Assembly (NCBI GenBank): GCA_951406725.2
Contig: OX597836.1
Coordinates: forward strand, 47,616,001-47,680,000
From: Octopus vulgaris
Lineage: Eukaryota
Direction of reading: 5' to 3'
Length of the DNA stretch: 64,000 bases
In this document: positions 11,714 to 56,957 of the stretch, one piece after another
Position numbering within the stretch: the first letter of the stretch is position 1
Layout: the number at the start of each line of letters is the position of its first letter
The notes under the pieces: generated by a model
Database searches by the model: none
The model's input: the letters and a program-made list of their open reading frames with translations, nothing else
What the model was told of the DNA's origin: nothing
Program-made: the position numbers and the translations under genes

Positions 11714-12432
11714 TTTTTTTTAGTTTAATTACATACACTCAATAATCAAAAGTAAGAATTTCCATATATCAGTTGCCTTCCTATTAATTAACAGTAAATG
11801 CAAGAATTGTTGCTAAAAGTAAAGAGAAAGATCTACAATGAAACCAGCTTAATTATAGAGCAAGTCCCTCGGTAACAGCAATTAGGAAGAAGAATTTGAC
11901 TTTTAATTATTGTATATCTATGACATAAAACAAAAACTTCACTTAGCATTTCTGAAGATGCTCATTTGCAATTTCGTGGTTCAGGATTCAATCGTCTGCA
12001 TGGCAGAGGACATTATTATAAGTTCTACTTAACCCAAACCTATAAGAGTAATCGGGTGGGAGAAACTGTGGAACTCCATAAGATATATTTGTTCTGGAGT
12101 AGCTGACTTAATCCATTGTCCAGTTTAATATGACCAGCAGATTAGCTTTTAGATGTCTTCAGCAGAGTCTAATCTATTGCAAGAATTTGGACCAGCTCTC
12201 TGGTATAAAGATATCAAAATCTTTCGTCCATTCCTCACACCAGATTTGGAATGCCTGTAAAATATATAGAAATTCCTTTTTCTGCTTAAGCTACAAAAAT
12301 AATTTAAAAAGTATATTTTTTGATATCTTTTAGCAACAATTCTTGCATTTACTGTTAATTAATAGGAAGGCAACTGATATATGGAAATTCTTACTTTTGA
12401 TTATTGAGAGTATGTGATTAAACTAAAAAAAA
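11714..12432. repeat. Long near-perfect inverted repeat, ~106-bp arms (11714-11819 / 12327-12432), 507-bp loop
   Basis: Manual alignment shows 2 mismatches in ~106 bp; arms match no other repeat in the window. Confidence 0.95.
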
Positions 12433-12669
12433 TATGATTTGCTATTTGTAGCAAGTTGATCACATGGAGTCTCTCTTTCATTGGCATGAGCAGAGAAGAG
12501 GCTGTCGGTGTTTAACCTGAAGTCAATTCTGATTAATAAAGGACCTATGGTTAAAGGCATTCCAGCCATGACCATCTTTTTTTTAATTGAGGGGCATGTG
12601 ACTGCAATTTTAGAAAGCTGAATGATGATGTAGACTTTCTCAATGGTTTGTGTACAGAAAAAAGTCATC

Positions 12670-12890
12670 AACCCTTTAGCATTCAGATTATTCTGTCAAA
12701 TGCCATGCTTATTTCTTCAGTTTTGAATTAATCATAAATAACCTTGTAGCTTCAAGACTTTGATGAAATGATAGTTTATTTCTAAAATGACATTGCAGGG
12801 TAGGTGTGAGAAGACAGATCTGGTTACTTGAAACTAGAACAGTTAGAATAATTTGGCTAAAATATGATCAGTTTAAATGCTAAAGGTTTA
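12670..12890 (-). mobile_element. TTAA-type (piggyBac-like) MITE, family A
   Basis: Termini ccctttagcatt...aatgctaaagg; related copies at 26697, 46918, 52310, 59828. Confidence 0.8.
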
Positions 12891-13194
12891 CGTGAGGTGA
12901 TATTTACTAGTATGTTTTCCAATCAAATTCCAAATTCCATCTGAGACCAAATAATCCATATTTCTTCAAGTTCTTTGTCCCCTATTTAATTGAAATATAT
13001 AATGTTTACAGTTTATATGAACAGTCACTGTAACTATTTACTTCAGTTTTGGATAGTTCTTTCAAGTGTTACATCTCATCACATTTTCCTCAAAAGCGCT
13101 AGATATGATTGTTGATTATCTTTTTAAGTACAAAATTAATTCATCACAGTAAGAGAGATAAACAAAATACCATTTCCTGTTATGTCTTTCTCTC

Positions 13195-13270
13195 TCTATG
13201 TATATGTGTGTGTGCATATATAAATATGTATGCATACACGTGTGTATATATATTTACACACACACACATA

Positions 13271-13309
<39 letters not shown>

Positions 13310-13478
13310 TTGAAATTTATGAAAAACAAAAGACGGAAGACATGTGTGTGTATTTATACACGTATATATGTGTGTGCATACATGTGTGTGTGTGTATATA
13401 CATATATATATGTATATATATGTCTATATACACATATGTATGTATATTTATATATATATATCTCTATATACACATATG

Positions 13479-13524
<46 letters not shown>

Positions 13525-13715
13525 TATATGTATGTATATTTATACATATATATACACATATATATGTATGTATATTTATATATGTATATATAGTTGAAAT
13601 TTACAGAAAACATAAGACGAAGACAATATATGTGTGTGTGTGTGTATATATATATATATGTATATGTATGTATATATATATATATGTGTGTATACACATG
13701 TGTGTGTATACATAT
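13195..13715. repeat. Compound (AT)n/(GT)n/(AC)n microsatellite field
   Basis: Visible dinucleotide runs; source of spurious YI/CV ORFs. Confidence 0.95.
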
Positions 13716-13910
13716 TCACCATGATAGATCGCTTGCCACTACTCATTCTTTATTTTCTCTCCTTGTTTCTTTCTGTGTTCCTTTCTGTGGAAGAGCAAAG
13801 GCTCGAAACGTTAAAGACTTCTTCACTTCCCGAGTGTTAAACTAATACATCTGTTTGTTGTCTACACCACCTGTCTCCATCTTCTTTGTTTTTTGTGAAT
13901 TCTCCCCCTA
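13716..13910 (+). mobile_element. Penelope-like terminal fragment with hammerhead-like motif
   Basis: cttt-ctgtgga-a-gagc aaag gctc-gaaac-gtt-aaag; related copy at 63245-63475; embedded in microsatellite. Confidence 0.55.
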
Positions 13911-13912
13911 TG

Positions 13913-13963
<51 letters not shown>

Positions 13964-14900
13964 TGTAGATTGTACGATACATGTGTGCGAACTGCCATGC
14001 TTTACAGCAGTGAAACATGGGCTGTGACTGCTGAAGACATGCATAGGCTCAAAAGAAATGAAGCTAGTATGATTCGCTGGATGTGTAATGTCAGTGTTCA
14101 CACATGACAGAGTGTAAGTGCCCTGAGAGAAATGTTGGACATAAGCAACATTAGATGTGGTGTGCAAGAGAGATGACTGCACTGGTATGGTCATTGGTTA
14201 TGTATGGATGGAGAGAGCTGTGTGAAGAAGTGTCATTCCCTAACAGTGAAAGGAGACCATGGAAGAGAGGGACCCAGGAAGACACGGGATGAGGTGGTGA
14301 AGCATGACCTTCGAATGTTGGGCCTCAGGGAGGCAATGACAAAAGACTGAGATCTCTGGAGATATGCTGTGACTGAGAAGACCTGGCAAGTAAAGTGAGA
14401 TCACAGCTGTAGCCTACACCAGGGTTGCATAACCAGCCCACTTAAAAAAAGTATCTTTGGATTGCCAGGTGACATGCTGTGCTTCAGGAGACCTATTGAG
14501 TCAAGTAAATCAAAGTCAAATCAAATGAAAATTGTAGATGTGGCTGATACCGGAGCTGTCTGACTGGCTCCCCGTGCCAGTGTCACATAAAAAGCACCAG
14601 CCAAACGTGATCAATGCCAGCCCCCTCATCCCAACTAGCTCCTGTGCTGATGGCACATAAAAAGCACCATCCAAATATGGCCGATACCAGAGCTGCCTGA
14701 CTGGCCCCCATGCCGGTGGCACGTAAAAAGCACCCACTACACTCTCAGAGTGGTTGGTGTTAGGAAGGGCAGCCAGCTGTAGAAACATTGCCGACCAGAT
14801 TGGAGCCTGGTGTAGCCTCCTGGTTTGCCAGTCCCCAGTCAAACCATCCAACCCATGCCAGCATGGAAAACGGGCATTAAACAGTGATGATGATGATGAT
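13964..14900 (+). mobile_element. RTE-clade LINE 3' end, degraded
   Basis: RLYDTCVRTAMLYSSETW...RNEASMIRWMC with stops; same 3' UTR units and (GAT)n tail as 7631-8577. Confidence 0.93.
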
Positions 14901-14916
14901 ACACAGACACACACAC

Positions 14917-15300
14917 ATTTGCTTCCGAACCACATGGTTCAATCCCTTCATGTGGCACCATGGGCAAATGTCTTCTACTATAGCCTTGGGCCAACCAAAG
15001 CGTTGTGAGTGGATTTGGTAGATGGAAAACTGAAAGAAGCCAGTTTTATATATATATGTGTGTGTGTGTGTGAGTGTATGTGTGTACGTATTTGTATGTC
15101 TGTGTTTGTCCCCTCCCCCTCCATCGCTTGACAACCGATGTTGATGTGTTTACATCTCTGTAACTTAACGGTTCAGCAAAAGAGACTAATAGAATAAGTA
15201 CTAGGCTTACAAAGAATAAGTCTGGTGGTCGATTTGTTTGACTAAAGGTTGTGCTCCAGTATGGCCACAGTCAAATGACTGAAACAGATAAAAGAAAGAA
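14917..15300 (+). mobile_element. tRNA-derived SINE, major family, 5'-clipped
   Basis: Family core, central microsatellite and tail. Confidence 0.9.
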
Positions 15301-15474
15301 TATATACATATATATATAAGGCAATTATTTTAAAAGTTTAAATTATGAAGTTTAGTACCTGCAATTTATATCCAAGAGTACAATGAACCATTAGCAGAAG
15401 CCTGGTGGATCCACAAATGAATTCTTTTTTTTTAAATCTATGAAAAATTATGTGTCAATACGTCAGAACCATAC

Positions 15475-15609
15475 ATCATTGAAGTCATTGAAAAACGATG
15501 TCGTGTAATTTCCAAAGCAGTATTTGTGCAGCTTTGGTTTCCTTCAAAAGTACCAGAGTCTATTCTTCAACCTGTCAGACTAGCAAAACCCAGATTAGTG
15601 GGTTTCAAC
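15475..15609 (-). other. Candidate 135-nt exon (non-coding or start-codon exon) of a minus-strand gene
   Basis: Acceptor gttaacattatgttgttacag|G and donor GAT|gtatgg in non-repetitive DNA; stops in all frames, ends ATG ACT TCA ATG AT. Confidence 0.3.
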
Positions 15610-16020
15610 CTGTAACAACATAATGTTAACGGAAGTGTTGCTATGGCCAATGATTCACTGTTTATATAACAAAATCACTAAGCTGACAAAAATTTGCTTT
15701 ACATATATATGTGTGTGTGTGCGCGTGTATGTATGTACCTATGTTGGTGATTTTGTAAGTTTGTTAAACCGGGAAATAAAAAAACAGGACATGCTCAGGT
15801 AACACTGAGACAAAAAGGAAAAACAAATTAAAGGATGCAATGAATAAATGCTCTAATCGGTCAAAAGTAACTTTATAGCATTTCCCATATTACCACAATA
15901 TCAAACATAAATATATATTAAAAATATCAGGGCATATATTACACACACATTTAGGTATGGTGATGCAAAGAGGAAAAATAGATCTCAAAATATAACTATA
16001 TGTATATTTTTATTGATATT

Positions 16021-16133
16021 TAGCAGAGGGAACACACTCGCAAGGGCTGAGAGTTCCGTGCACTGGCACTTAAGTTTGTTAAGTGCCAATGCACAAAACT
16101 CTCAGCCCTTGAGTCACTCTGTTGCTTCTGCTA
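16021..16133 (-). ncRNA. Candidate structured RNA hairpin (pre-miRNA-like or ADAR substrate)
   Basis: 33-bp stem 16041-16073/16079-16111 with 5-nt loop; all three mismatches are G-U on the minus strand; weaker basal pairing tagcaga/tctgcta. Confidence 0.4.
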
Positions 16134-16288
16134 CACACACACACACACATATATATTAATATGTATACACGCAATAGAGCAAAAGGATAGGCAGTCAACA
16201 AGTATCAAGTCGGTGTGTAACATATTTATACATATACAAATGTAATGAACTTTTCACATCCCAGACTCTACTTGACTTTCTGCTAAAC

Positions 16289-16590
16289 CATCATGATCAT
16301 CGTTTAACGTCCGTTCTCCATGCTAGCATGTGTTGGACGGTTCGACCGGGGTCCGGGAACCCAGGAGGCTGCACCAGCCTCCAGTCTGATCTGGCAATGT
16401 TTCTACAGCCGGATACCCTCCCTAATGCCAACCACTCCATGAGCGTAGTGGGTGCTTTTTATGTGCCACCGGCACAGAGGCCAGGAGGTTGGCAATCGCC
16501 ATGATCCGTTGGTGTTTTTTATGTGCCACCAGCGCAGAAATCAGTTAAGGGGTGCTGGCATCGGCCACGTTCGGATGGTGCTTTTTACGT
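16289..16590 (-). mobile_element. RTE LINE 3' UTR fragment
   Basis: Same tail and hairpin units as 7631-8090. Confidence 0.9.
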
Positions 16591-16844
16591 GTGTATATAT
16601 ACCTTTACGTATATTTGCATTTCCCTTCAGTGTATCATATAAGTATAAAATATGTTATAAACTGACTTGAAACCTGTTGACTGCCTGTTTATGCTTTTGT
16701 TCTCCTATACATATACCAACTCGATAGATATGTTGATATCACGCACTTTCATGTAAAGCTGGGACTTAGGTGCAAATTCTGTCTGACCACTCAATGTATG
16801 CATCTTAGTATATCACTTGATATCTTACTACCCACAACTTTATA

Positions 16845-17055
16845 TACTCTTTACTCACTTTTACTATTTTGCTTGTTTCAGTCATTTGACTGTGGCCATG
16901 CTGGAGCACCGCCTTTAGTCAAGCAAATCAACCCCAGGACTTATTCTTTGGAAGCCTAGTACTTATGCTATCAGTCTCTTTTGCTGAACCGCTAAGTTAC
17001 GGGGACGTAAACACACCAGCATCGGTTGTCAAGCGATGCCGGGGGGACAAACACA

Positions 17056-17127
<72 letters not shown>

Positions 17128-17273
17128 CATACATACGACAGGCTTCTTTCAGTTTCTGTCTGTTCAGAGGATATAGTAGAAGACACTTGCCCAAAGTGCC
17201 ATGCAGTGGGATTGAACCCAGAACCATGTGGCTCGTAAGCAAGCTACTTACCACACAACCACCCCTACGCCTA
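16845..17273 (-). mobile_element. tRNA-derived SINE, major family
   Basis: Family consensus with long (AC)n centre and a small deletion. Confidence 0.92.
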
Positions 17274-17749
17274 TAGTTTGGGGAAGAAAAAGCAGTAGAT
17301 TTCAAAAACCATGATACTACCTACATTTCCTTTGGACACAAACTGTACCACAATGTATTCCTCAGAAATCATAATTTACTTAGTTAAATTCCATAATTAG
17401 TTTTCATGTCTGATTAGCAAGAGTCTTCATGTGAATTTGTGTTGAAACAAGTTTTGCTGTTTCTAGGGAGTCATAATTAGACTCTGATAGAGAGGTAAAT
17501 ATATTTACTATAAATAAATTTGGCTACAATGAACAATGTCAGTAGGACAACTGAAAAAACATATAAAGTTAAAAGCAAAATTACAAGAGAGTATTTCCAA
17601 ATACCAAACTATAACAATTTTTAAGATCAATACATTTCTTAATATTCTCCATTCCTGAGCTGGTATGAATCCAATAATCTCGAAATAGATTTAGACACTT
17701 GCACATTTGTCGTTTGCCACCAGGCAAATATGTAGTAATCTTCCATCGT

Positions 17750-18390
17750 TTTTACTTTTTTATTCGTTTCAGTCACTTAGACTCTGGCCATGCTGGGGCA
17801 CTTTTTTGATGAATTTTATTCAGATGCATCAACCCCAGGACATATTTTCTATTGAAGCCTGGTACTTATTCTGTCATTCGCTTTTGCAAAACTGCTTGTT
17901 TACAGGGATGTAAACACACCAACACCGGTTGTCAAGCAGTGGTGGGGGACAAACAGACCCACATAACGAGCTTCTTTCAGTTTCTAACCTCTAAATCCAA
18001 TCACATGGCATTGGTCAACAAGAAGCTACAGCCCAAACTACCATGCAGTAGAATTGAACCTGGAATAATGTGGTTGGGAAGCAAACTTCTTACCACACAG
18101 CCATCCCTGTGCCTATGTATGATTAAAATAGTTTGTTGTTTTCACTACCAATCCTGTATTGCAACTAAATGCGACTGAAAATGTGAATACATATGGTACA
18201 TCTGCGAATATATATATATATATATATATATGCAGACATGGCTGTATGGTACAAAGTTTGCTTCCCACCTATATGGTTCAGGTTTCAGTCCCACTGCATG
18301 GCACCTTCTGCAAGTGACTTCTACTACAGTATCAGGCTGACCAAAGCCTTGAGTGGATTTGGTAGATGGAAACTGAAAGAAGCCCATCAT
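17750..18390. mobile_element. Two old SINE copies head-to-head (17750-18115 minus, 18232-18390 plus partial)
   Basis: Diverged family head and core motifs in opposite orientation. Confidence 0.8.
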
Positions 18391-18415
18391 GTGAGTATAT
18401 ATGATGCTGATGATA

Positions 18416-18466
<51 letters not shown>

Positions 18467-18850
18467 TAACAATTGAAGATAAAATCTTTAAAAGAAATTA
18501 TAGTATCAGCGTGAAAAACCTCGTAAGAGAAAAAATCCGTAAAATATAAATTAATATTTTCAAAGAGGAAGAATTTATTTTCTCTTAGTTTTCATATACT
18601 ATAATTATATATTTATATTTTTACTGAATAGTTCAATATGAATTTTATTATATATGCATTGCGAAAAGCCCGCCATTTTCATAGATATGTAGGATACATG
18701 CTACGGAATTCTACGGTTGGCTATCGAGTTTGTAATGTTATGTTTTTCTTATATTTCTTGAGTTTGTTGCACTGACGAACATGAAATGCATATTCTGCAT
18801 TAAATGCGAAATCACATGTGATATGTAACTGAACACACACACACACACAT

Positions 18851-18885
<35 letters not shown>

Positions 18886-18986
18886 TATTATATATGTATG
18901 TGTCAAAATAATTGTAGTGATTTTAAATAGAAAATGGAATGAACAATATTCTCTATCATTTATTTATATATACACACACACACACA

Positions 18987-19774
18987 CAGAGGGTGTGATG
19001 GTTAAATTGTTACCATTTTATATCTTTAATTTCATGCATGTGCATTGTGTGTTTTTCATTTTGTTGACTGCACAGTATAGTAGGGTCAATTGGGAACCAT
19101 TTGTGAGAAAAACAGCACCATGATACAATTCACTCTAGCCAGAAATTTGGAAATGACACGCTGTGCTGCTTGGCATTCATGCCAGTGGCTCCAATACCAA
19201 CATGTACCAAGAGTGATAAAAATCAAACATCCAGTCAACATTATGGTGTTTGGAGTGATCACTAGTAATGGCGATGCTATGCCTCCATTCATCTTCTCAC
19301 ACAGCTTCACACTCAACACAGAGACCTACATCAAGTGACTGAAGGAGGCAGTGCTACCCTGGATCAAGAGGGTGGCTGCTGGAAGACCCTATATCTGGCA
19401 ACAGGACTCTGCACCATGTCACACAAGCAGGAGAACCCAGTCATGGCTATCAGACAATTTCTGTAACCACATCACCCCTAACATCTGGCCACCTAACTCC
19501 CCAGACTGCAACCCCCTTGATTATTATGTGTGGGGTGCAGTTGAGTGAGAGACCAACAAAAGATGAACTGAAGGAAAGGATTATGGCAGCATTCACCAAC
19601 CTAATCAAGGAGATAACCCAGAAGAGTTGCAGGAGATTCTGAAGTCATCTGGAGGCCATGGTTGAAACCAATGATTCAATTCAATTTACTCTTAAGTATT
19701 TCAAGATATTTTTATGTCATTTTGGAAAATATATCTGTTAAAATGAGATGTCCATGTTATTTCACCACACCCTG
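18987..19774 (+). mobile_element. Tc1/mariner DD37D (maT-type) transposon, internally deleted, dead
   Basis: IMVFGVI...WQQDSAPCH...WPPNSPDCNPLDYYVW with 37 residues between the 2nd and 3rd Asp; imperfect termini ca(ga)gggtgtg / cacaccctg-TA. Confidence 0.88.
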
Positions 19775-19794
19775 TATATATATACATACACGCG

Positions 19795-20186
19795 CTGTTT
19801 CAATCATTAGATTGTGGCCATGGTGGAGCACTGCCTTGAAGGATTTTTAGTCGAATGTATCAACCCCAGTACTTATTTTTCATAAGCCTCATACTTAGTC
19901 TATCAGTCTCGTTTGCCAAACCACAAAGTTACAGATATGTAAACACACCAGCACTGGCTGTCAGGTGGTGGTGGTGGGGAGATAATCACAGACACAATGA
20001 CACACACACATAAATATATACAGATATACAATAGGCTTCCTTCAGTTTCCGTCTACCAAATCCATTCACAAAGTTTTGGTTGGCCTGAGGCTGTGGTAGA
20101 AGACACTTGCTGCCATGCAGTGAGACTGAACCTGAAACCATGTGGTTGGGAAGCAAGCTTCTTATCACACTGCCATGCCTGTGCCT

Positions 20187-20187
<1 letters not shown>
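19795..20187 (-). mobile_element. tRNA-derived SINE, major family, old copy
   Basis: Diverged family consensus. Confidence 0.88.
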
Positions 20188-20231
<44 letters not shown>

Positions 20232-20449
20232 CATACACACGCATATATATAATTGATACTAATATTACACTAGTATAAAATGTTGCATTTATTCAATAGT
20301 GTTAGGTAGCAGGGAATAGTATTAACTGAAATCCATGTGTACCCGGGTTACTCAGTGGAGTTTCCTCGTGCTTTGTCCTCTGCCACCCAAATACCAACAA
20401 AAACAAGTTCTGAATAGTGACTCATTTTTAAGTTTGTGATTGTGTGGCT

Positions 20450-20803
20450 TTTCTCTTTTATACTCGTTTCAATCATTAGACGGCCATCCTGGGCACAAGC
20501 CTTGGAGAGTTTTTAATCAAAATAATCAACCCCAGTACTTATTTTTCATAAGCCTCATACTTAGTCTATCAGTCTCGTTTGCCAAACCACAAAGTTACAG
20601 ATATGTAAACACACCAGCACTGGCTGTCAGTGGTGGGAAACATACCAACACACACACACACAGGCTTCTCTCAGTTTCCGTCTACCAAATCAACTCATAA
20701 GGCTTATAGAAGAAGACACTTGCCTAAGGTGCCATACAGTGGGACTGAACCCAGAACCATATGGTTGGGAAGCAAGCTTCATACTATACAGCCATACCTG
20801 CAC
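20450..20803 (-). mobile_element. tRNA-derived SINE, major family, old copy
   Basis: Diverged family consensus; shares a 106-bp identical tract with the previous copy. Confidence 0.88.
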
Positions 20804-21399
20804 ACTATGTCCAACTCTTGCCCCAACCTCTCTCTTTTATCTAACATTCATTTGTTTCTCCCCAGCCAACTCATTTCAGACTCTCAATGGTTTACTTCTC
20901 CCATTCATCATTGACTGTTACAAATCCTCTCTTTTTACTGGTATGTATTTCTCTATCTCTCTCAATATTTACATTACAAAAAAATGTGTCAACATTTGAG
21001 TAGAAGACAAAAATAATACAAAGGGGTCGGGGAAATGTTTCCAGTATCTTTGGAGGTTTGACTATATCAAACTATTTTCGTTTAAATTTCTATACACTCT
21101 GACTTACATTTCTTGCAATCACATTTTATAATTTCCCTTTAAGATATAGCCACAAGTCAGCACCATACACTGATAATTTTATTCTACAACAATGATCACG
21201 TAGCTTCCTGGTTGTTCATTTTCTTGATATAAGACTTTTTTCCTCTCTGGTTTAACAAGAAAGAACACTTGCTTTTCAATTGCTTTCATAATAATTTGTT
21301 TCCATCAATAATGGCACAGAAAATATGTGCCACAACTCCAATGTCTTTTGTTGCCGAATGCAAGTGTGCTTCTGAGGGAAACAAACAGATGAACTGCCT

Positions 21400-22320
21400 C
21401 AATAAAGACTGCAAGCTCAATGCTGTTAGGAAATGCAGTTGGCAAGAAATTTGAGACTGATAGTGAACATGACACTATAAACAGAAAGCTACCAGACAGG
21501 GCTGTCCATAGACAAGTAGAAATGCCTGATGAACAACAGGTTCACCATGCATGCATTATGAATGCCCTCAAGAGTGTCAGGCCAGATAGAAAGCTCACGT
21601 ACCCACAGAAGCTGTGGAAAAGAGCTGCCTTCAAATATGATCCTGGGCATAAGTGCGCTTCTGAAAAAATAGTTTCAAATGGTATCTCATTAAAAATTTG
21701 TGACAAGTGCTTGAACAACAAATGGAAACAAGAGACAAGTGCAATATGCCGGTCCAATGGAAAAAGCTAATCTACCAGTTTTTATTGAGCTGCCAGAGCC
21801 CTTTTTACTGCCACCAGAGCCCTTTTTACTGCCACCACTAAGATCTATGCACTTTTAGAAGAACAACAGAAATCATAAGTCATGCAAACTTTTAAAGTAC
21901 AAGGGCAGATCTACCACAAAATCAGTTCACTTTAGCCCCTCCCAATGAAAAGCCTCCATTTCTGAAGCTGTACTTTGCTGTTGACTTGATGAGACAGGTT
22001 CTTAACAGAAACACTGTCTCCAAGTTTGACTTAATTTGTAAATTTCCAGAAATGTTCCATGCATAAAACAGTTATGTCAGGAGTTTCAACTATGCTTTGG
22101 AATCTGCATCTGTTCTGAAGTTTCAAATTGTTTAATGAAAATAAGAGGCCATCTGGAAAACTTATTTCAATGTACTTGAATGAAATGAGGTTGCTGTCAT
22201 TAGGAGTGGAAAGCTACATTACAAAAGAGATCTCATTTTGAAGCACACACACAGCACTCTTAAAAGTATAAATGAGATACATAGATCCTATGATGCAGTA
22301 TAATAATTTCAAATACCAAA
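21400..22320 (+). mobile_element. Helitron Rep/helicase N-terminal region, pseudogenised
   Basis: AAFKYDP...ICDKCLNNKWKQETSAICRSNGK, then LPEP, FKVQGQIYHKISSL, FLKLYF, NSYVRSF, NEVAVI, SYDA: ordered Helitron N-terminal motifs with frameshifts. Confidence 0.8.
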
Positions 22321-22877
22321 ACAAAAAACTGTTGTCACTTTCAATTCTGGAGCCTTCTATATTAATATTTCCATGCCTCTTCCTTTTCAGAATCACTAAA
22401 TGCACTATTATTCCATTTACACACACTTCTTACACACAACATCTTGGTTAGCTCTCATGTGTTGTCTTGCAATTCAGAAACACCTGCTCTTGCCATCACC
22501 CGATGGTTATAAGCAAGCGTCAATGTTATACATGCGATGTTGTTCCTTTCCAGTCTTTCACGGAAAACATGGCTGGCCACGAGAAAATATCTACTGTGCT
22601 CGGGAAAAGGAAAGTCTGGTGACAGAAAGCACTTCTGGGTATATGAATTCCGTGTGACCCATGCAAACACAGAAAAGTGGATGTTATGATAAGGATGGTG
22701 GTGATGATGATGATGATGTGTGCACACGCTGAAACTGAGAACAGATGTAAAACTATATTAAAGACATAATTATCAAGTCACAGAGGCAAATTAAATATCA
22801 CTGAAAAGTAGAAGAAAATTAATGATAACTGTGCAAAGACAGAAGCTGTATGAATGAATGAATGGATGAACAATAAC

Positions 22878-23050
22878 CGTTGATCTTCTGATACATCACC
22901 ATTATAAATCAATGTCTGCTGATTTACTGCCACGGGTACTTCCGATGTAAATACACTGCTGCCACTGGGCTGCAAGTCAGCACTGATCTGAGAAGAACTA
23001 TGATGAAAAAAGTTCCCCACATGACCATCATGTATCTTATTTAGTGGCAT
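22878..23050 (-). CDS. Candidate first coding segment of a minus-strand gene (MPLNKIHDGHVGNFFHHSSSQISADLQPSGSSVFTSEVPVAVNQQTLIYNGDVSEDQR), product unknown
   Basis: Non-repetitive ORF, ATG in aaattATG context, inside a candidate exon 22878-23302 with a strong poly-U acceptor; donor CG|gttatt is weak; upstream ATGs exist. Confidence 0.3.
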
Positions 23051-23302
23051 AATTTATTGAACGTATCCCTTTCTTTTTATTTTATTTTTTTTTTTTTTTT
23101 AAGACTGTAGAGTGCATTTTGAGAATGATACGGCCAAGTGGCCACATAAAGGCTCCTTCAGCGACTTGAGGAGAATTGAGGTACTGCTTGGTAGACACAA
23201 AGGTGTATAAATGTATAACAAATTGCTGGACCATAAACACATGGACTACAGACCAATAAGGTGGTCTTTGAAGTGGTAAAAATAGCAGCTGCAAACTACT
23301 GT

Positions 23303-23532
23303 CTTAAAAAAAAAAAAAAAAAAAAGAAAGAAAGAAATAAAAAGCATTACATAATGCAGACCTATATTATGGCTACAATGCTTTTCATCATATGCTTGCT
23401 GAATCAGAGCTGACCTGCAACAAATCAAGAAATTGTTTTCAATTAGAGGGGAGTGGGGGGAGGAAAAGGAAGAGAGATAAAACAATAAAACAGGAAATTA
23501 CTGAACACAAGAAGGAAAAAGTTGTAACTTAC
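23303..23532 (-). other. Candidate ~230-nt 5' UTR intron
   Basis: Donor AAT|gtaagt at 23532; long polypyrimidine tract then aag|acag|tag acceptors at 23303/23299/23296. Confidence 0.45.
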
Positions 23533-25146
23533 ATTGCTGAGTAACTAATCAAAATGAGTTTGTTGTTGCTGCTGCTGCTATAGGTAGTATAAGAGAGGAT
23601 GTAGAAGAACTAGAAGGAGAGAGTATCAGCAAAGAGATGGAGTGGTCTGTTGGTGAGGTGAATGAAAGATTAATAGGATAGGAAGATAAAATGCTCTGGA
23701 CTGCAAAAGAGCTCTTGCACGTGCTAGAGTCAAGAAACAACTGATGTAGCAATGGATCAGCTAAAAGTTTACAGTTGGTACACATCCTGAAAGTGGAGGA
23801 AGAGTCACTCCTCACTTTATAAAATTTCAAATAAATACTCTCTCTCTCTTTCTGTAAGTGTGTATTTGTCTCTCCCTCTCTCTCTCTCTCTCTTTGTTGT
23901 TGTCAGCCTGTATTTGTCCAAGCACAACTGTAAACAAGAAAGAGGCACAAAGGCCTACAGAAACAATTATTTATTTATCCAGTTTAGGAACTGCCAATGT
24001 TCTGCGGTATATTTGTCTTTCCTACATCATGGTGAATGTTTGTGCGGCCTGGGCATTTTTAACTGTAAAAAAGAGAAAGAGAATATTGAAGAGATCAAAA
24101 AGGAATTATTAATGTTTGTTTTCATTTAAAATATATATATAAGAAAAACTAAATTCAATACTTTTCAGTAGAGTGCCTCATTCATTCTATCTGGGGAAGA
24201 GTTAAGTGACTTCAAACTTTCAGCCTAATTACCATCATCTTTTCTTGAGATGTGTTTAAGCGTTATAACTTCAACAAAATATGTGTTTTGATATTGAATT
24301 TTGAACTTTTACAAGTAAAAAAAAAAGATTATGCGTTATTCAGCAGAGGAGGGCAGTATCCATAATCATATTTTTTCATGGTTTCTGGGTTTCATGATGA
24401 AGAGAAACTTTAATTCAGATTAACCTTGGCTAAGAAGCTTAGTCCAAATGTTTGCAAGAGAGTGGAATGTGTTAAAAGCAGCAAAAGGCTAAGTGGCTAA
24501 GTCTACCACCAAATAACAGTACAACCCATCAAATGAGTTTCTGCAGGTTTGGGTCTTATTTGAAGCAGAAGAGATGTTGCACAAACTTAGACACACAGAC
24601 AGACCTGCAAAATTGCTTATGAAACAAAAATTAAAATTACAGATTAACAATTAAAGAATTGTTACTAGAATCTCAATCCGAACTGAATAATCTCCATGAT
24701 TTATTCCTTGACAAACCTTCAGTTATTAAGAACTGAATTTCAGATTAAAGCTGAAATATAATCAGAAATGTTGCTGTTGATTTCTGATCAAGGAAACTTA
24801 AATTATGAGCAAATACGTTCCAGCCATGACCATGCCATCTAATTTTCATACAATATATTGATGACATCATTATCCAATGAGTCCTTCCTTTCCTAAGGAT
24901 GTTGTTTGAAGGCAACTTTGCTGCTATAAGAGGTGCCCTCACTGATTTGGATATTAATTAGGTGCCAAATATATTTAACTTCCAAGTGTATTTAGATTGA
25001 ATTCAAATAAATGAATTCGCTTTATTTCTTATTAATCTAATTAATTTTTGAGGTAATTACAAACAAATACTTCAGAAGTAAACCATCGTAGCATTTATTT
25101 TACAAAGAAAGAAAAAAAACTCTTCAAAAATATTTAAATTAAAATA

Positions 25147-27887: not shown

Positions 27888-29491
27888 GGAGATATATTTA
27901 GGAGTCTACAAAGAATTTGAGATGAACTGACCTGTTTTAGCATTTTTTATTTTGTGTGAAGCTAAGGGTTGTTTGCTATTTTAAGGGACAGTGTGGGAGG
28001 TTGGGTGGGTGAAGAAAGACAAATGTGGAATTGAAAGGATTTTTTTGTTTCTGTGTTAGTCTGTCATGGTTCAGTGGTTTTGGGGACTAGTCTTAGAGGT
28101 CAGAATGGTCGGGGTGGTGTGTGTAGGTGTGTGCATGTACGTGTTTATATTATATATGTGTGTGTGTGAGTGTTGGTTATGGTTGCTAGAATCATATTGC
28201 AAGTGTATATATGTATGTGTTTTTTCTTGGAATGTGTGAGGGTTTGTGCTCTAGTGTGGGGATATTGTGTTTATGTGTGTGTGTATGGTGTGTGTGTGTG
28301 TGTGTATGGTATGTGTGTGTGTTTGCATCAGAGGTTTGCATTGTTTTTGTGTGTGTGTGATTTTGTATATCTGTATGTGTTTCTGTGTGTTTTGTTTTGG
28401 ATGTGTGCCTGAGGGGTATGTTAGAGTATGTTGAGTTGTGGTCTGTATTTTTGAATAAGATTATTTTCCCTATTTATTCATGTTTGGTCAGTAGTGTTGT
28501 CCGGGCATTGGTATAGTGGGAAAACTAGGAATTTGGGGAACTTGTGTGCACAGAGATCTAAATGCCCACTAAGTGGTATCTGTCTTGCGGTGGGATCCCT
28601 CAATTGTTGGCGGTGAACTGTCATTCTTTCCAATCTTGCATGGGAGAAGACTGCACTTAACTTCATTGTTTGTTGTGTGTGTGTGATTGTTATTAATCCA
28701 AACAAGTGAAGGAACAGAAGAAATTAAAATGCACAGAGAATATATTAGAATTAATTAGAATTTAATTGTATTTTAAAATTAGAAATACACTTGACCGGTT
28801 TCACATTAGATTTTCAAAAATGTATAGTGTTTGGAAATGTGTTGTGAATTATGTCAACTCTGGCCATTGTGATAAAAATAGTTTGTTTTTTAAGTAGGAA
28901 TGTGACTCGGAATGTTTTCTGTTAACATACAAATCGATTGGTCAACATTCCTCTCTTACACTCATGTGACAGTAACACAAGAAGGTCACACAAAAGTTTT
29001 CCTCCATTGAATATGTCATATGACAGTTTAGCAAAGAGATATAAATAACCAATGTAATTATTGTTTACATAAAAAGTGTTACAGATAATTATTGTCAAAG
29101 AATGTGATCCATTAGTATTAATTCCATCCTATTGCACAAGTCAAAACATATCCCTTTTTTTTGTTAACAAGGCATGGGTAAGATAACAAGGTGTTGGATT
29201 AATTTTGGTTTTCTTAACAACTTCAAGCAGACATTCTACAATAATTCAGAGAAGGAGTCTCAGGAATTGCTGATGGTTTTTATATGTTCAGCAGCAGCAG
29301 CAGCTTGTATTAAATAAATGAACTTTCTTTATTAATTGCTTGGTCTGGAGCATAGTCCAAGATAGAGTCAGAAGGTAAGAAATCTGAGAGATTTGGTTTT
29401 TGTGCAAGTGTCCAGATTTTCACTCAGGGGAATTTGTCTTGTTTTGGGGGTTGCATAGTTATTGACAATGAATATTTAATCTCATTCTTAA

Positions 29492-29712
29492 CCCTTTCGT
29501 TACTGTACTTATTTTGAGATGCTCTCTGTTCCTTTCAATTATTTTAAATATAACAAAGAATTTAGTAAAATAACTCAGTTATCATTCAACTAGTGTTAGG
29601 TATATAAATTGCGACTAAGGTTTGGTGGAAGATTTCAATGCAAAACTTATGAAAACAAGACATTTGTACTACAGAGCCAGAGCCGGTTTTGGCCGGGTTG
29701 GTAACGAAAGGG
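29492..29712. mobile_element. piggyBac-like MITE, family B, intact
   Basis: Perfect 12-bp TIR ccctttcgttac/gtaacgaaaggg flanked by TTAA on both sides. Confidence 0.93.
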
Positions 29713-30378
29713 TTAAAGTGGGTTTAGTTTCTCCAATGTAGTCTTCCCTGCATCCACTGCCGTTTAGTACCTTTTGGTTTGCAGTTGATGCCAGTCTCTA
29801 TGTTTGTGTCATTCTTAATACTTCACTTTCTTCCTCTTTCTAACACTACCAAATCTCAATCCAACACTAACTTCTATCCCCCACTCAGCAACACTGTTGC
29901 AACTACACTACACTAGCATACACCAGATGTGCTCCCACACACAAATATCAGAAGCACACACACACATATATGTAGACACATACACACCAGATGTAAAAAC
30001 ACATGCACATGTATTCACCCAGATAAACACACATACATTCACACATTCACATAACTACAGGAATGCACATGCTCATGCTCCACTAAATGTCCATACGCAC
30101 ACACCTACACATGCATTCTAAACAGAAACAGCCACATGCAGCAGATGCTGACTTAAATGTATTTGCACACACACACACACACACACAAAACCAATAAATA
30201 CATAGTTGACACATACATCCACATTTACGCCCAGATAAGTACCCACGTATGGCTCTTATGCACCTGCACTCACACACACACACACAACCTAGCAAACGTA
30301 CACACACACACATGGTTGATACACATCCACATCCATACATAAGCACACCCTAGCAAACATATACAAATGAAATGATAC

Positions 30379-30612
30379 CTATTTCTTTATTACCCACAAG
30401 GGGCTAAACACAAAGGGGACAAACAAGGACAGACAAATGGATTAAGTCGATTGCATCGACCCCAGTGCGTAACTGGTACTTAATTTATCGACCCCGAAAG
30501 GATGAAAGGCAAAGTCGACCTCGGCGGAATTTGAACTCAGAACGTAACAGCAGACAAAATACAGCTACGCATTTCGCCCGGCGTGCTAACGTTTCTGCCA
30601 GCTCGCCACCTT
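30379..30612 (-). mobile_element. Second tRNA-derived SINE family (Meta/MESC-like core), young
   Basis: Head aaggtggcgagctggcagaa...gagttcaaattcc, core gcctttcatcctttcggggtcgataaattaagtacc; perfect 14-bp TSD aaatgaaatgatac (30365-30378, 30613-30626). Confidence 0.92.
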
Positions 30613-31061
30613 AAATGAAATGATACAATAAGCCCTTACCCACACACAGCAGATACACACACATATAAGCACCAGACACCCACATCTATGCACTCATACA
30701 ACTGGTGTACACACACACACACACACATGCTCTTACTAGCCATAGGTCTAAATCTGTACAAGTCCCTTTCGGAGACCAGCCAGACACCATCAGTTTCCTG
30801 TTCAGCCACACAGTCCAAGAAATTCTCCTCCGCAATGTATTTGGTATTGCTAGAATGACAATGTCACTTCTAACAACACCATGTGACCTGCCTCCACAAA
30901 TAGTAGCCCAGTTTCTGCTAACCATCTTGGACTTTCCTGCACCTCTCCATTTGGCAACCTCAACCCAACAAGCTAGGGTAGTATAAGAAGCCTACGAAAC
31001 AGTTTTGAACAATTTGATTCTGTCCCATGCAACTTAAAGTTTCATACGCTTCATACTCTTC

Positions 31062-31259
31062 CAGGAAGAGGCTCGTCTTCTAGGCTATATTTTCTGGGTC
31101 AGAATTTCTGGAACCACTGTTGACACTGGCTTACACTTATTGTCCAATCCCCATATATTGCTTTAATATTCCTCGCACTTTCCATTGCATTATTGAACTT
31201 TATTGAACTCATAAAGCAAAATATGCCAAATATTCACCTTTGTTACTTGCATTATAGCA
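31062..31259 (-). mobile_element. 198-bp inverted copy of mariner segment 33944-34141
   Basis: 6 mismatches in 198 bp; no TIR of its own. Confidence 0.93.
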
Positions 31260-31410
31260 CGGAGTGGTTGGCGTTAGGAAGGGCATCCAGCCGTAGAAAC
31301 ACTGCCAGATCAGACTGGGCCTGATGCAGCCTTCTGGCTTCACAGACCCCAGCTGAACCATCCAACCCATGCTTGAATGGAAGGCGGATGCTAAATGATG
31401 ATGATGATGA

Positions 31411-31413
<3 letters not shown>
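31260..31413 (+). mobile_element. RTE LINE extreme 3' tail
   Basis: gagtggttggcgttaggaagggcatccagc...(GAT)n; another old tail at 32005-32191. Confidence 0.9.
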
Positions 31414-31457
<44 letters not shown>

Positions 31458-31595
31458 TGTGTCTGTAGGGAGTCATTCTCTTTTTAGTGCCTTAATATTT
31501 AACACACTAAAAGAGAATGACTCTCCCCAGACACAACAGAATATGCTTCAACACATGAATTCACATAAAGAATCTTTCAAACCAACTCGAAAAAT

Positions 31596-31648
<53 letters not shown>

Positions 31649-31710
31649 CGGAGATGTACTCGCATAGCAAGTAATTTGATCTGAGATCGTGTGCTGAAAC
31701 GAAAACAATT

Positions 31711-31759
<49 letters not shown>

Positions 31760-32217
31760 CACATGGATGGTGTCTGTTTATCTGGCTGGTCTCTGAAAGG
31801 GACTTGCACAAATTCAGATCCATGGCTGGCAAGGGCATGTGTGTGTGTGTGTGTGTGGATGTGAGTATGCATACACACCAAATGTATGAGTGCATAGATG
31901 TGGGTATCTAATGCCTCTATGTGTGTGTCTGAAGTGTGTGGGTAAGAGCTGATGGTATCAGTTCATTGGTGTATATGTGCATGTTTGCTAGGGTGTGCTT
32001 GTGTGCTGGTGCCACATAAAAAGCACTCAGTCTACTTTGGGAGATGGCTGGTGTTAGGAAGGGCATCCAGCCATAAAAAACTATGCCAAGACAGACACAG
32101 TAGCTTGGTGTAGTCTTCCATCTGCAGAATTCCTATCAAACCATCCAACCCATGCCAGCATGGAAGGTGGACATTAAATGATGATGATGATACATAGATA
32201 CACACACACACATTATA

Positions 32218-32250
<33 letters not shown>

Positions 32251-32269
32251 TACATATATATATATTACA

Positions 32270-32432
32270 TAGGCGCAGGAGTGGCTTGTGGTAAGTAACT
32301 TGCTAACCAACCACATGGTTCCGGGTTCAGTCCGACTGCGTGGCATCTTGGGCAAGTGTCTTCTGCTATAGCCCCGGGCCAACCAATGCCTTGTGAGTGG
32401 ATTTGGTAGACGGAAACTGAAAGAAGCCTGTC

Positions 32433-32516
<84 letters not shown>

Positions 32517-32730
32517 TTGTGTGTCTGTGTTTGTCCCCCTAGCATTGCTTGACAACCGATGCTGATGTGTTTACATCCCCGTCACATAGCGGTTCGGCAA
32601 AAGAGACCGATAGAATAAGTACTGGGCTTACAAAGAATAAGTCCCGGGGTCGATTTTCTCGACTAAAGGCGGTGCTCCAGCATGGCCGCAGTAAGATGAC
32701 TGAAACAAGTAAAAAAGTAAGTAAAGTAAA
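32270..32730 (+). mobile_element. tRNA-derived SINE, major family, young
   Basis: Full consensus with expanded (AT)n centre. Confidence 0.95.
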
Positions 32731-33277
32731 AGTATAACATATATAACATGTATATATTACATGTAACATAAATGTATGTAACATGTAATATGTACTACAC
32801 TACCCACAACCTGTTGGATCATTGATGGTTCAGGTTATGAAACATTGAAGCTGATCTCAACATTGCACTGAAATGAAAGTTGATTTTATGATGATTCAGT
32901 GAAATATTTCAATTTGTTTGTGTCATCATAGGTCTGTTTACAAGTTCATGTTAAAGGTTTTATTGATTATTTACAGCATCCCATAGAAATAGATCTTCCG
33001 GGATAAACTTGAACTCCAGTAACAGCATTTATTTATGGCCTGTGTGCATACTTCTACAAAAAATGCAAAAGTAATTGTTGTATAACATAAAATTAATGGA
33101 AACAATTTTCACAGTATTATATATATTCCCATTTCAGGGTTACGTTACTTTCGGAGTGTTTTTACATTATGTACCGTTTTGGCTGTATTAAATTTCAAGC
33201 ATGCAAGCAATCACAGCAGTGCCCCAGCGTGCCCACAGCCTCAAGGCTGAAACATTCAAGTATGTGTGTATGTATAC

Positions 33278-33319
<42 letters not shown>

Positions 33320-33321
<2 letters not shown>

Positions 33322-33744
33322 TCTTACTCTTTTACTCTTTTACTTGTTTCAGTCATTTGACTGCGGCCATGCTGGAGCACCGCCTTTAGTCGAGCAAATC
33401 GCCCCCAGGACTTATTCTTTGTAAGCCTAGGACTTATTCTTTGTAAGCCTAGTACTTATTCTATCAGTCTCTTTTGCCGAACCGCTAAGTTACGGGGATG
33501 TAAACACACTAGCATCGGTTGTCAAACAATGTTGGGGGGACAAACACAGACACACAAACATATACACACACATACATATATATAACAGGCTTCTTTCAGT
33601 TTCCGTCTACCAAATCCACTCACAAGGCTTTGGTCGGCCCAAGGCTATAGTTAGAAGACACTTGCCCAAGGTGCCACGCAGTAGGACTGAACCCGGAACC
33701 ATGTGGTTGGTAAGGAAGCTACTTACCACACCGCCACTCCTGCG

Positions 33745-33748
<4 letters not shown>
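33320..33748 (-). mobile_element. tRNA-derived SINE, major family, young, with internal ~22-bp duplication
   Basis: Full consensus; ggacttattctttgtaagccta tandemly duplicated. Confidence 0.95.
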
Positions 33749-33786
<38 letters not shown>

Positions 33787-33787
<1 letters not shown>

Positions 33788-35082
33788 AGGGTCATCCCAT
33801 AAATGATGTGGTTTCTTTCAATTGCATGAATTAGAAGTCAGAGGGAATGGGATAAATTACCTGCATCAACTAGCTATGAAAGCAGGTAGTATTCTTAGTG
33901 CAAGTTTGAAGAGTTCAGTTCGATTTTGGCAGTTATTTTTCAATGCTATAATGCAAGTAACAAAGGAGAATATTTGGCATATTTTGCTTTATGAGTTCAA
34001 TAAAATCCAACAACGCAATGGAAAGTGCGAGGAATATTAAAGCAATATATGGGGATTGGACAATAAGTGTAAGCCAGTGTCAACAGTGGTTCCAGAAATT
34101 CTGACCCAGAAAATATAGCCTAGAAGACAAGCCTCTTCCTGCAAGATCTGTAGAGCTCAACATGCATAATGACATGCATAAGATCTGGTCATCAAATCTA
34201 AGTAGAGACTTCAAACTTGAAATCTTCAAAGCCACAGTCGAACCAATTCTACTCTTCTCCTCTGGAAGCCATCTGCTTGTGATACCAGAGGGCGCACACT
34301 CTCCTACCCTGATGTTATCTCCAGGGATACAGGCATCCAGCAACAGGACCTCCGTAATGCCATGATGGACCGTGAAGTCTGGCGTAGCATGGTAAATTCC
34401 ATTGTCTCGACCACGGTCGAACAATGATGATGATGAGAGCTCAACAAGAACGTCCTGCAAGCCCTAATTGAACAAAACCTCGTAACTGTTGAGAAATTTG
34501 CATTTGGTCATTCAACCATTCATCAACAGCTATGAGCCATCAGAAAAGTCAGAAAATTGGATCAATGAGTTCATCACAAACTCTCAGAATATAATCGTGC
34601 GCAGAGAGTGAATGTATGCTCTTCTTTGCTGTCATGTCTCATGAATGGACCTATTTTGGACTGAATAGTGACAAGAAATGGGTTCTGTATAAAAATGTCA
34701 AGCACCGAAGACAGTGGGTAGGGAAAAGAGAAACACAAGCATCCCAGGCCAAAGAATGTCTTCATCCACATAAGGTGTTGTTATCTGTTTGGTGGTATAT
34801 GAAAGGTTTAGTCTACTTTGAACTTTTAAACCAAAACCAAACAATAACAAAGGACGGAAAAAATATGAATTCTGTAGATGACATCAGAACAGAACTGGAT
34901 GAGTATTTTTCATCACGGACAAATGAATTTTGGAAGAGGGGCCTTGCAAGTCTACCATATAAATGAAGAGCATTGTAGAAAATGAAGGAGGGTATATATT
35001 GGATTTTTAAAAAACTGGTTATCCTAATTTTAAAAAATAAAGGAAGTATAAAAAAACACATTATTTATGGGATGACCCAATA
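33787..35082 (+). mobile_element. Mariner-type transposon with both TIRs, internally deleted and interrupted
   Basis: TIRs tagggtcatcccataaat / atttatgggatgacccaata; relic motifs DKKWVLY, LHPHKVLLSVWW, EFWKRGLASLP; same family as 5224. Confidence 0.93.
34163..34435 (+). mobile_element. RTE-like LINE fragment (second family) nested in the mariner
   Basis: KIWSSNLSRDFKLEIFKATVEPILL then AMMDREVWRSMV, (TGA)n tail, 11-bp TSD agagctcaaca (34152-34162, 34436-34446). Confidence 0.88.
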
Positions 35083-56956: not shown

Positions 56957-56957
56957 A

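What the first reader, a model, noticed from the sequence alone, without database searches (positions are those of the whole stretch)
11714..34141. Set of high-identity local foldbacks with a minus-strand G-U bias: candidate intronic dsRNA scaffold system
Seen: three inverted pairs are far better matched than surrounding repeats (11714/12327, 2 mismatches in ~106 bp; 16041/16079, 3 in 33; 31062/33944, 6 in 198). Of their 9 transition mismatches, 8 form G-U pairs only in minus-strand RNA, the strand of the candidate exons. Established: coleoid cephalopods show very extensive ADAR A-to-I editing that depends on dsRNA. Inference: these duplexes are made locally and retained as pre-mRNA structures that recruit ADAR or steer splicing. 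Caveat: small, post hoc sample, and the older palindromes at 51325 and 59263 show no clear bias.
Basis: partly seen in the sequence, partly recalled or inferred. Interest (0 to 1): 0.72.

Follow-up and report, generated by a model that had tools for sequence, protein, structure and literature searches.

The report
Unrelated foldbacks in an octopus intron
The three mirror-image repeats are real and two sit in a spliced intron of the octopus TMCC gene, but they have unrelated origins (one transposon hairpin and two likely DNA-copying accidents), and their G-U tilt is shared by repeats across the whole gene, so it likely reflects strand-biased mutation rather than a selected RNA-editing scaffold.

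Summary
Coordinates and the 8-of-9 count are correct. An RNA contig splices window position 23533 into minus-strand TMCC, so pairs 1 and 2 are intronic; pair 3 lies upstream of that exon. The three are not one system. Pair 2 is a copy of a dispersed palindromic MITE-like family. Pair 3 is a local inverted copy of part of a decayed Mariner; three of its five transitions fall in one 10-bp tandem overwrite. Pair 1 is single-locus, has a 13-nt templated junction, is likely missing in a sister lineage, and its only transition is G-U on the plus strand. The tilt is regional: 384 of 660 transitions in 30 inverted pairs of the window lean minus. Over 1.86 Mb, close, well-matched pairs give 175 of 349 (50%) and distant pairs 1542 of 2841 (54%) on the inferred sense strand. 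Five of six independent events gives p about 0.2. Incidental ADAR editing is plausible but untested. Ordinary.

The parts
1..23532 (-). Window part of a ~45.7-kb 5' intron of TMCC (transmembrane and coiled-coil domains protein, PF10267); continues ~22.2 kb left of the window
   Evidence: One contig of run X2 joins the exon ending at 23533 to the 47-nt exon L037:7796-7842 and on to the next TMCC exon; TMCC coding exons map 22-197 kb left of the window on minus; Pfam
23533..23786 (-). TMCC 5' exon with GTAAGT donor; only its last 30 letters are shown directly, and the upstream end at 23786 is a predicted acceptor
   Evidence: Loose end maps once in 1.86 Mb, at 23533; the contig carries 363 letters beyond the joint, so the exon may be longer or spliced further upstream
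11714..11819 (.). P1 left arm, single-locus AT-rich intron sequence; likely the template
   Evidence: 2 matches of 2 candidates in G000; DNA contigs of X16 and X17 pass through it unbroken
12327..12432 (.). P1 right arm, inverted copy; likely a young template-switch insertion ending in an A/T run
   Evidence: 98% to left arm; X16 and X17 contigs leave the reference at 12321 with 248 unmatched letters; X1 and X2 contigs cross its inner and outer junction
12318..12330 (.). 13-nt junction patch: exact inverted copy of 12207-12219, overlapping the recipient by a T run and the arm by 4 letters
   Evidence: 3 of 5000 random AT-rich 13-mers had such a copy within 500 bp
16011..16133 (.). P2: decayed copy of a dispersed palindromic MITE-like element; the reported stem is its core 16041-16073/16079-16111
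   Evidence: 81 match rows from 40 scored of 1386 candidates, on many contigs; aligned to 4 copies; folds; no Rfam family in the window
31057..31259 (.). P3 left arm: inverted local copy of the 5' part of the Mariner at 33.8-35.1 kb, abutting a 5'-truncated SINE-like repeat at 31260 with 2 letters of microhomology
   Evidence: Local partner 97%, next best of 40 scored (3574 candidates) 91%; 12 columns shared by both arms against the majority of 10 family copies; junctions
31190..31209 (+). Perfect 10-bp tandem duplication in the left arm that accounts for 3 of P3's 5 transitions (31192, 31196, 31198)
   Evidence: the right arm keeps family-like letters here
33787..35082 (+). Decayed Tc1/mariner DNA transposon containing the P3 right arm (33944-34146)
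   Evidence: PF01359 Transposase_1 E=4.6e-18 at 34595-34963; terminal inverted repeats near 33789 and 35079 read by eye
32269..33750 (.). Ordinary inverted pair of SINE-like repeats (32269-32720/33321-33750, ~92% over 359 columns, ~0.5 kb apart) nested inside the P3 loop; predicted to be a more stable duplex than any of the three reported
   Evidence: duplex energy -682 kcal/mol on minus against -355 (P3), -154 (P1), -60 (P2). 'SINE' is my recalled label

Best explanation
The three foldbacks are likely neutral by-products with separate origins (a transposon palindrome and two likely template-switch copies), and their G-U tilt likely comes from strand-biased mutation across the minus-strand TMCC gene. 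SHOWN: TMCC is spliced on the minus strand across P1 and P2. P2 belongs to a dispersed palindromic family. P1 and P3 arms are each other's closest copies among those scored. Repeats throughout the gene carry more sense-strand C>T and A>G than G>A and T>C changes, whether or not they can pair. LOGIC: in any inverted pair, a C>T or A>G change on the sense strand leaves a G-U pair in the RNA and the mirror change leaves A-C, so a mutational strand asymmetry and a G-U tilt are the same measurement. INFERRED: P1 and P3 arose when a stalled or broken replicating strand switched at short microhomologies to a nearby template of opposite orientation (two switches for P1, via 12207-12219 and then the left arm). 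The asymmetry is inferred to be transcription-associated, mainly deamination of methylated CpG on the exposed non-template strand in the germline. Any ADAR editing of the duplexes would be incidental, as for the many other inverted repeat pairs of this intron.
For: Background tilt: 384 of 660 in 30 non-overlapping window pairs; 55.8% for arms >10 kb apart and 54.7% for <1 kb among 206 overlapping matches. Against family majorities of four repeat families, TMCC domain 1564 of 2855 (54.8%, p=3.5e-7), driven by CpG C>T 577/1921 on sense vs G>A 390/1932. Copies with an inverted partner <3 kb: 1461 of 2793 (52.3%); with none within 10 kb: 906 of 1747 (51.9%); Fisher p=0.78. 1.86-Mb test without the three pairs: close (<3 kb), >=90% pairs 175 of 349 (90 pairs); distant pairs 1542 of 2841 (255 pairs); locally made inverted pairs 11 of 24 (the 12 of 31 that fall in a strand-assigned domain). 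The sign flips in the neighbouring opposite-skew domain (633 of 1346 minus-type). The AT-skew domain begins about at the TMCC stop codon. Of the 5 independent minus-type transitions, 3 are at CpG (16095, 34014, 34129). Locally made inverted pairs are common: 33 of 164 candidate pairs in 1864 kb, about one per 56 kb, next to 36 of 172 direct ones. P1 junction patch; P1 right arm likely absent in X16 and X17.
Against: After removing the tandem cluster, 5 of 6 events still lean the predicted way (not significant). The 3-10 kb partner class shows the strongest tilt (1283 of 2326, 55.2%), which I cannot explain. Sense strands outside TMCC were assigned after the fact from AT skew, and the one long plus-strand ORF I tested had no Pfam match. 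Replication-linked asymmetry is not excluded. CpG methylation was not measured. The absence of the P1 right arm rests on two contigs in truncated tables; partial depth remains in that bin (19.2 vs ~37 in X16), and gain versus loss is not polarised. A neutral origin does not exclude later co-option.
Confidence: 0.82

Rival explanations
1. Selected intronic dsRNA scaffolds: the duplexes are kept by selection to recruit ADAR or steer TMCC 5' splicing, and G-U-keeping changes are tolerated while A-C changes are purged.
For: P1 and P2 are in a real minus-strand pre-mRNA. Duplexes are predicted stable, and P2 and P3 are 9 and 21 kcal/mol more stable on minus. [quoted passage not shown] TMCC has alternative 5' ends.
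Against: No excess over background in any class tested. P1 is slightly more stable on plus and likely not shared with a sister lineage. The nearest coding exon is ~34 kb from P1. 61 overlapping inverted matches of >=50 columns and >=85% identity (P1 and P2 not filtered out) lie in the same intron with the same tilt, 334 of 581. One G-U for A-C swap is about 1% of the P3 duplex energy.
Confidence: 0.06
2. Same neutral origins, but the strand asymmetry comes from replication direction rather than transcription.
For: Skew domains are 100-320 kb. Bacterial leading-strand deamination bias is described in PMC10030826 (passages). The dominant class differs by domain: CpG C>T in TMCC, A>G in the plus-skew domains.
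Against: The domain's left edge (about -192 kb) coincides with the TMCC stop codon (-197 kb), and the T-rich strand is the spliced strand.
Confidence: 0.08
3. P1 and P3 are older pairs kept alike by gene conversion between arms, or P1's right arm was lost in the sister lineage.
For: P3 arms share 12 derived columns, which conversion also gives. P1 arm divergence (2 of 106) is of the same order as the lineage split (47 substitutions in ~3600 letters).
Against: P3's left arm has no Mariner sequence outside the 203 shared letters, so there is no older copy to convert. P1 has sharp ends and a templated patch.
Confidence: 0.04

Closest known systems
Short-range template switching / microhomology-mediated templated insertion (PMC7954356, abstract and passages; PMC8421209, search listing only)
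   Same: Makes nearby near-perfect inverted repeats; enriched at poly(dA:dT) tracts, as at both ends of P1's right arm; multi-step switches leave short templated patches
   Different: Copies here are 106-203 bp from 0.5-2.7 kb away, longer than typical short-range events; the pre-event allele was not read directly
Transcriptional strand asymmetry of mutation (PMC10030826, passages; the mammalian A>G excess of Green et al. 2003 is recalled, not read)
   Same: Sense strand T-rich; excess C>T and A>G on the non-template strand across a long gene, independent of RNA pairing
   Different: In this TMCC domain the CpG C>T class dominates (0.30 vs 0.20 per site) and A>G is weak; germline expression and methylation were not measured
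MITEs / non-autonomous palindromic DNA transposons (class recalled; superfamily not assigned)
   Same: P2: ~130-150 bp, almost wholly palindromic, dispersed, non-coding, AT/TA-rich ends
   Different: Target-site duplication not resolved; no autonomous partner sought
Repeat-derived intronic dsRNA edited by ADAR (PMC9989829 and PMC9068888, passages)
   Same: Young inverted repeats in pre-mRNA would form editable duplexes
   Different: That editing is a general by-product of repeats; editing at these arms was not shown, and nothing marks them as special
Conserved editing-complementary sequences (ECS) at recoding sites (recalled)
   Same: Intronic inverted complementarity in one pre-mRNA
   Different: Neither arm is a coding exon, the nearest coding exon is ~34 kb away, and conservation is likely lacking for P1

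Membership tests
Selected ADAR/splicing dsRNA scaffold (ECS-like) | Both arms in one pre-mRNA on the stated strand | tested here: met
   P1 and P2 lie inside the spliced TMCC intron. For P3 only inferred from AT skew and asymmetry reaching +128 kb
Selected ADAR/splicing dsRNA scaffold (ECS-like) | Pair-keeping changes in excess of the local mutational background | tested here: not met
Selected ADAR/splicing dsRNA scaffold (ECS-like) | Both arms conserved in relatives, with compensatory changes | tested here: inconclusive
Selected ADAR/splicing dsRNA scaffold (ECS-like) | A-to-I editing over the arms | not testable with these tools
   Only assembled contigs were available; they break inside the arms and drop rare variants
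Selected ADAR/splicing dsRNA scaffold (ECS-like) | Pairs with or flanks a coding or regulated exon | tested here: not met
   X1 contig runs unspliced over 11786-12353 and no listed joint falls in the P1 loop (15 of 70 joints shown); no Atlas support for the loop ORF; nearest coding exon ~34 kb away
Template-switch / templated insertion (P1, P3) | Template is nearby and is the closest copy | tested here: met
   (40 of 3574 candidates scored)
Template-switch / templated insertion (P1, P3) | Microhomology or templated patch at junctions | tested here: met
   P1: 13-nt patch, 3 of 5000 by chance; P3: only 2 letters at the inner junction, which is weak
Template-switch / templated insertion (P1, P3) | Empty ancestral site in an outgroup | tested here: inconclusive
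   Sister lineage diverges at 12321 but its 248 letters were not displayed; no outgroup laid
MITE (P2) | Short, non-coding, long terminal inverted repeats, many dispersed copies | tested here: met
MITE (P2) | Target-site duplication | tested here: inconclusive
   Ends lie in AT/TA-rich sequence in the 5 copies viewed
Tc1/mariner (host of P3 right arm) | Mariner transposase domain plus terminal inverted repeats in TA context | tested here: met
   PF01359; repeats read by eye
Known pre-miRNA or structured RNA family (P2) | Match to a curated RNA family | tested here: not met
   0 matches at gathering score in 4227 Rfam families; octopus-specific microRNA lists were not searched
Transcription-associated mutational asymmetry | Follows the transcribed strand and is independent of pairing | tested here: met
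   TMCC domain
Transcription-associated mutational asymmetry | Separable from replication asymmetry; scales with germline expression | not testable with these tools
   No annotation, replication or expression data

The most novel reading that the evidence does not exclude
Template-switch accidents keep seeding perfect foldbacks in giant octopus introns (about one per 56 kb here), sense-strand C>T/A>G mutation passively turns their decay into G-U pairs, and at least one of these (P1 or P3) has been co-opted as an ADAR-loading or splice-steering duplex that controls TMCC's alternative 5' ends.
Probability: 0.06. Interest if true: 0.62.

Novelty: already known. Interest (0 to 1): 0.16.

Why it matters
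As a system it does not hold up. The practical lesson is that a G-U orientation tilt in inverted repeats is arithmetically the same as mutational strand asymmetry, so any test of selection on cephalopod dsRNA must use distant or unpaired repeats of the same intron as the null, not 50:50. The by-product, a clear sense-strand CpG C>T excess across a ~320-kb octopus gene, is a usable marker of transcription units and likely of germline gene-body methylation. If the novel case were true it would give a route by which editing substrates arise without selection and are then co-opted.

Tried and rejected
Editing test: on 8600-13190, run X2 (spliced, so RNA) showed A>G 6 and T>C 1 on the plus strand, and X1 showed 1 and 1. 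Minus-strand editing would read T>C. Three of X2's A>G places (11337, 11846, 12044) are also in DNA runs X16 and X17, so they are alleles. Contigs break inside the arms and drop rare variants, so this is no evidence either way. No listed holder was on record as RNA. X1, X3 and X19 had nothing on the 47-nt exon; no proof of absence. A terminal-exon-like 26-codon frame at 12177-12254 (minus) in the P1 loop: no Atlas support, covered unspliced by X1; rejected, and with it a circRNA/exon-looping reading. P2 as a pre-miRNA: no Rfam match, dispersed family; not pursued in octopus microRNA lists. Pfam on 36 window ORFs found only transposases at meaningful scores. One search's background count had an orientation bug (10 pairs) and was replaced. 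My first reading that all five P3 transitions were separate C>T events (note) was dropped after the tandem overwrite was seen. In some searches the tandem-repeat mask hides 20 columns of P3, which is excluded from those tallies anyway. Literature searches listed no paper on G-U orientation selection in cephalopod introns; one search returned 2 papers with 4 of 5 terms, seen as listings only. No supplements were read; editing-site tables in those of PMC9068888 or PMC9989829 could bear on the editing question.
Full report
Observation. P1 (11714-11819/12327-12432) has one transition, G-U on the plus strand, and one transversion. P2 (16041-16073/16079-16111) has three transitions, all G-U on minus. 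P3 (31062-31259/33944-34141) has five such transitions and one transversion. The 8-of-9 count thus comes wholly from P2 and P3 (two-sided p=0.039 against 50:50).

Setting. The window is G000:C23:47,616,001-47,680,000. An 88-residue open frame 70 kb to the left is 100% identical to Octopus sinensis TMCC2 (PF10267), whose coding exons map on the minus strand 22-197 kb left of the window. One contig of run X2 covers exactly the 47-nt first coding exon. Its loose ends are the next TMCC exon and a sequence found once in 1.86 Mb, at window 23533, next to a GTAAGT donor. P1 and P2 therefore lie in a ~45.7-kb minus-strand intron. This rests on one contig of one run of the four laid. P3 is upstream of that exon; that it is transcribed is inferred only from the A>T skew that runs from about -192 kb to +128 kb.

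P2 is not local. A genome search gave 81 match rows from 40 scored of 1386 candidates on many contigs. Four other copies align over the whole palindrome and one folds into a far longer, nearly perfect stem. It is a decayed MITE-like element (class label recalled). Against those four copies its mismatches are two T>C on plus and one CpG G>A on plus. Rfam has no match in the window.

P3 is a local copy of transposon DNA. The right arm lies in a decayed Mariner (PF01359; terminal repeats read). The left arm's best match is the right arm (97%), against at most 91% for the other 38 of 40 scored places out of 3574 candidates. The arms share 12 columns that differ from the majority of 10 family copies, 10 of them with a majority of at least 8. 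The copy abuts a 5'-truncated SINE-like repeat with 2 letters of microhomology. Three of its five transitions (31192, 31196, 31198) fall where the left arm carries a perfect 10-bp tandem duplication and the right arm keeps family-like letters, so they are best read as one slippage event. The other two are at CpG. The independent tally is then 5 of 6 (p=0.11 at 0.5, 0.20 at 0.58) or 6 of 7 with the cluster counted once (0.06, 0.13).

P1 is a young single-locus duplication. The search found 2 matches of 2 candidates. At its inner junction, 12318-12330 is an exact inverted copy of 12207-12219 that overlaps both the recipient and the arm; 3 of 5000 control 13-mers had such a copy. That is the pattern of two successive microhomology switches; PMC7954356 (abstract and passages) describes template switches making nearby inverted repeats and being enriched at poly(dA:dT) tracts. 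Runs X1 and X2 cross the inner and outer junction of the right arm, so it is no assembly artefact. DNA-sized runs X16 and X17 (47 substitutions in ~3600 letters for X16) pass unbroken through the left arm and both leave the reference at 12321 with 248 unmatched letters, so the right arm is likely absent there. The tables were truncated, some depth remains in that bin, and gain versus loss is not polarised.

The tilt is background. In an inverted pair a sense-strand C>T or A>G leaves G-U and the mirror change leaves A-C, so the tilt equals strand asymmetry of transitions. In the window, 30 non-overlapping inverted pairs (the three included) give 384 of 660 minus-type (58%, p=3e-5). Among 206 overlapping matches, arms >10 kb apart give 55.8% and arms <1 kb give 54.7%. 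In the TMCC domain, pairs of >=93% identity within 10 kb, the three excluded, give 123 of 227 (71 overlapping pairs). Scored against family majorities, with no pairing assumed, four repeat families give 1564 of 2855 in the TMCC domain, mostly from CpG C>T on the sense strand (577/1921 vs 390/1932). The sign flips in the adjacent opposite-skew domain. PMC10030826 (passages) describes deamination on the exposed non-template strand as a cause of such asymmetry.

Sense strands were assigned from AT skew in six domains, after the fact, and only the TMCC one is validated; pairs outside these domains were dropped. Close (<3 kb) pairs of >=90% identity gave 175 of 349 (50.1%, 90 pairs) and distant pairs 1542 of 2841 (54.3%, 255 pairs), Fisher p=0.15, in the direction opposite to the prediction. 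Of 164 inverted candidates, 33 were locally made (partner at least 4 points better than any distant copy in the region), about one per 56 kb, so two in 64 kb is unremarkable (Poisson about 0.3, by hand); 36 of 172 direct candidates passed the same filter. The 12 non-focal local pairs in assigned domains gave 11 sense to 13 antisense. Repeat copies with an inverted partner within 3 kb (52.3%) did not differ from those with none within 10 kb (51.9%, p=0.78); the 3-10 kb class was highest (55.2%), unexplained.

Function. The duplexes are predicted stable (-154, -60, -355 kcal/mol on minus), but P1 is slightly more stable on plus, an ordinary repeat pair inside the P3 loop reaches -682, and 61 overlapping inverted matches of >=50 columns and >=85% identity lie in the same intron. 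PMC9068888 and PMC9989829 (passages) report that ubiquitous editing targets repeats in introns and UTRs and young repeats generally, so incidental editing is plausible; it could not be tested with contigs. ADAR's preference for A-C mismatches is recalled, and would if anything weaken the argument that G-U marks an editing scaffold.

Verdict. Real sequence features and a correct transcribed strand, but three unrelated origins and a tilt that matches the gene-wide mutational background. Neutral by-product with transcription-linked asymmetry 0.82, replication-linked variant 0.08, selected scaffold 0.06, conversion or loss 0.04. Already known kinds; interest 0.16. Earlier AI notes on this genome describe similar inverted copies as repair scars; they are unchecked leads, not support.

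Noticed in passing
TMCC domain, about -192 kb to +128 kb relative to the window start: Strong sense-strand CpG C>T excess (577/1921 vs G>A 390/1932), while the plus-skew domains show mainly A>G excess (399/8525 vs T>C 287/8780). Different genes may carry different asymmetry signatures, perhaps by methylation level.
   Followed up: partly
window 23533-23534: The 5' exon ends in AT; spliced directly to the exon at -68 kb it would create the start codon of the 'MK' TMCC isoforms (P0002, P0010), skipping the 47-nt exon. Inferred; not seen in a contig.
   Followed up: partly
beyond window end, up to about +128 kb (L040-L046): AT skew and asymmetry continue to about +128 kb, which predicts a further upstream TMCC exon or another minus-strand gene; GC-richer open frames that look like a retroelement (recalled label) sit at +130-133 kb.
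   Followed up: no
G000:C23 about 47,028,372-47,034,454: A 6-kb palindrome, 2883 paired columns at 97.7%.
   Followed up: no
L080:6885-8705 (+): 607-residue open frame in unique sequence with no Pfam match at E<=0.001.
   Followed up: partly
window 19859-19964 and 20525-20630: Perfect 106-bp direct duplication inside SINE-like repeats 560 bp apart, far above the best distant copy (82%): a local direct counterpart of P1 and P3.
   Followed up: no
window 38986-40532: 23-bp purine-rich satellite, 68 copies, 90% matches.
   Followed up: no
window 46553-47368, 51312-51607, 56947-57090: Older self-palindromes; minus-to-plus G-U counts 11:6 and 1:2 for the last two; the first is a head-to-head repeat pair.
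   Followed up: partly
window 5400-5595: A third, independent Mariner-family fragment, 80% to the P3 arms.
   Followed up: partly
runs X1, X2 versus X16: Runs under one organism label differ: X1 is nearly identical to the window and has both P1 arms, while X16 is ~1.3% divergent and seems to lack one. The label may cover two taxa, or the arm may be polymorphic.
   Followed up: no
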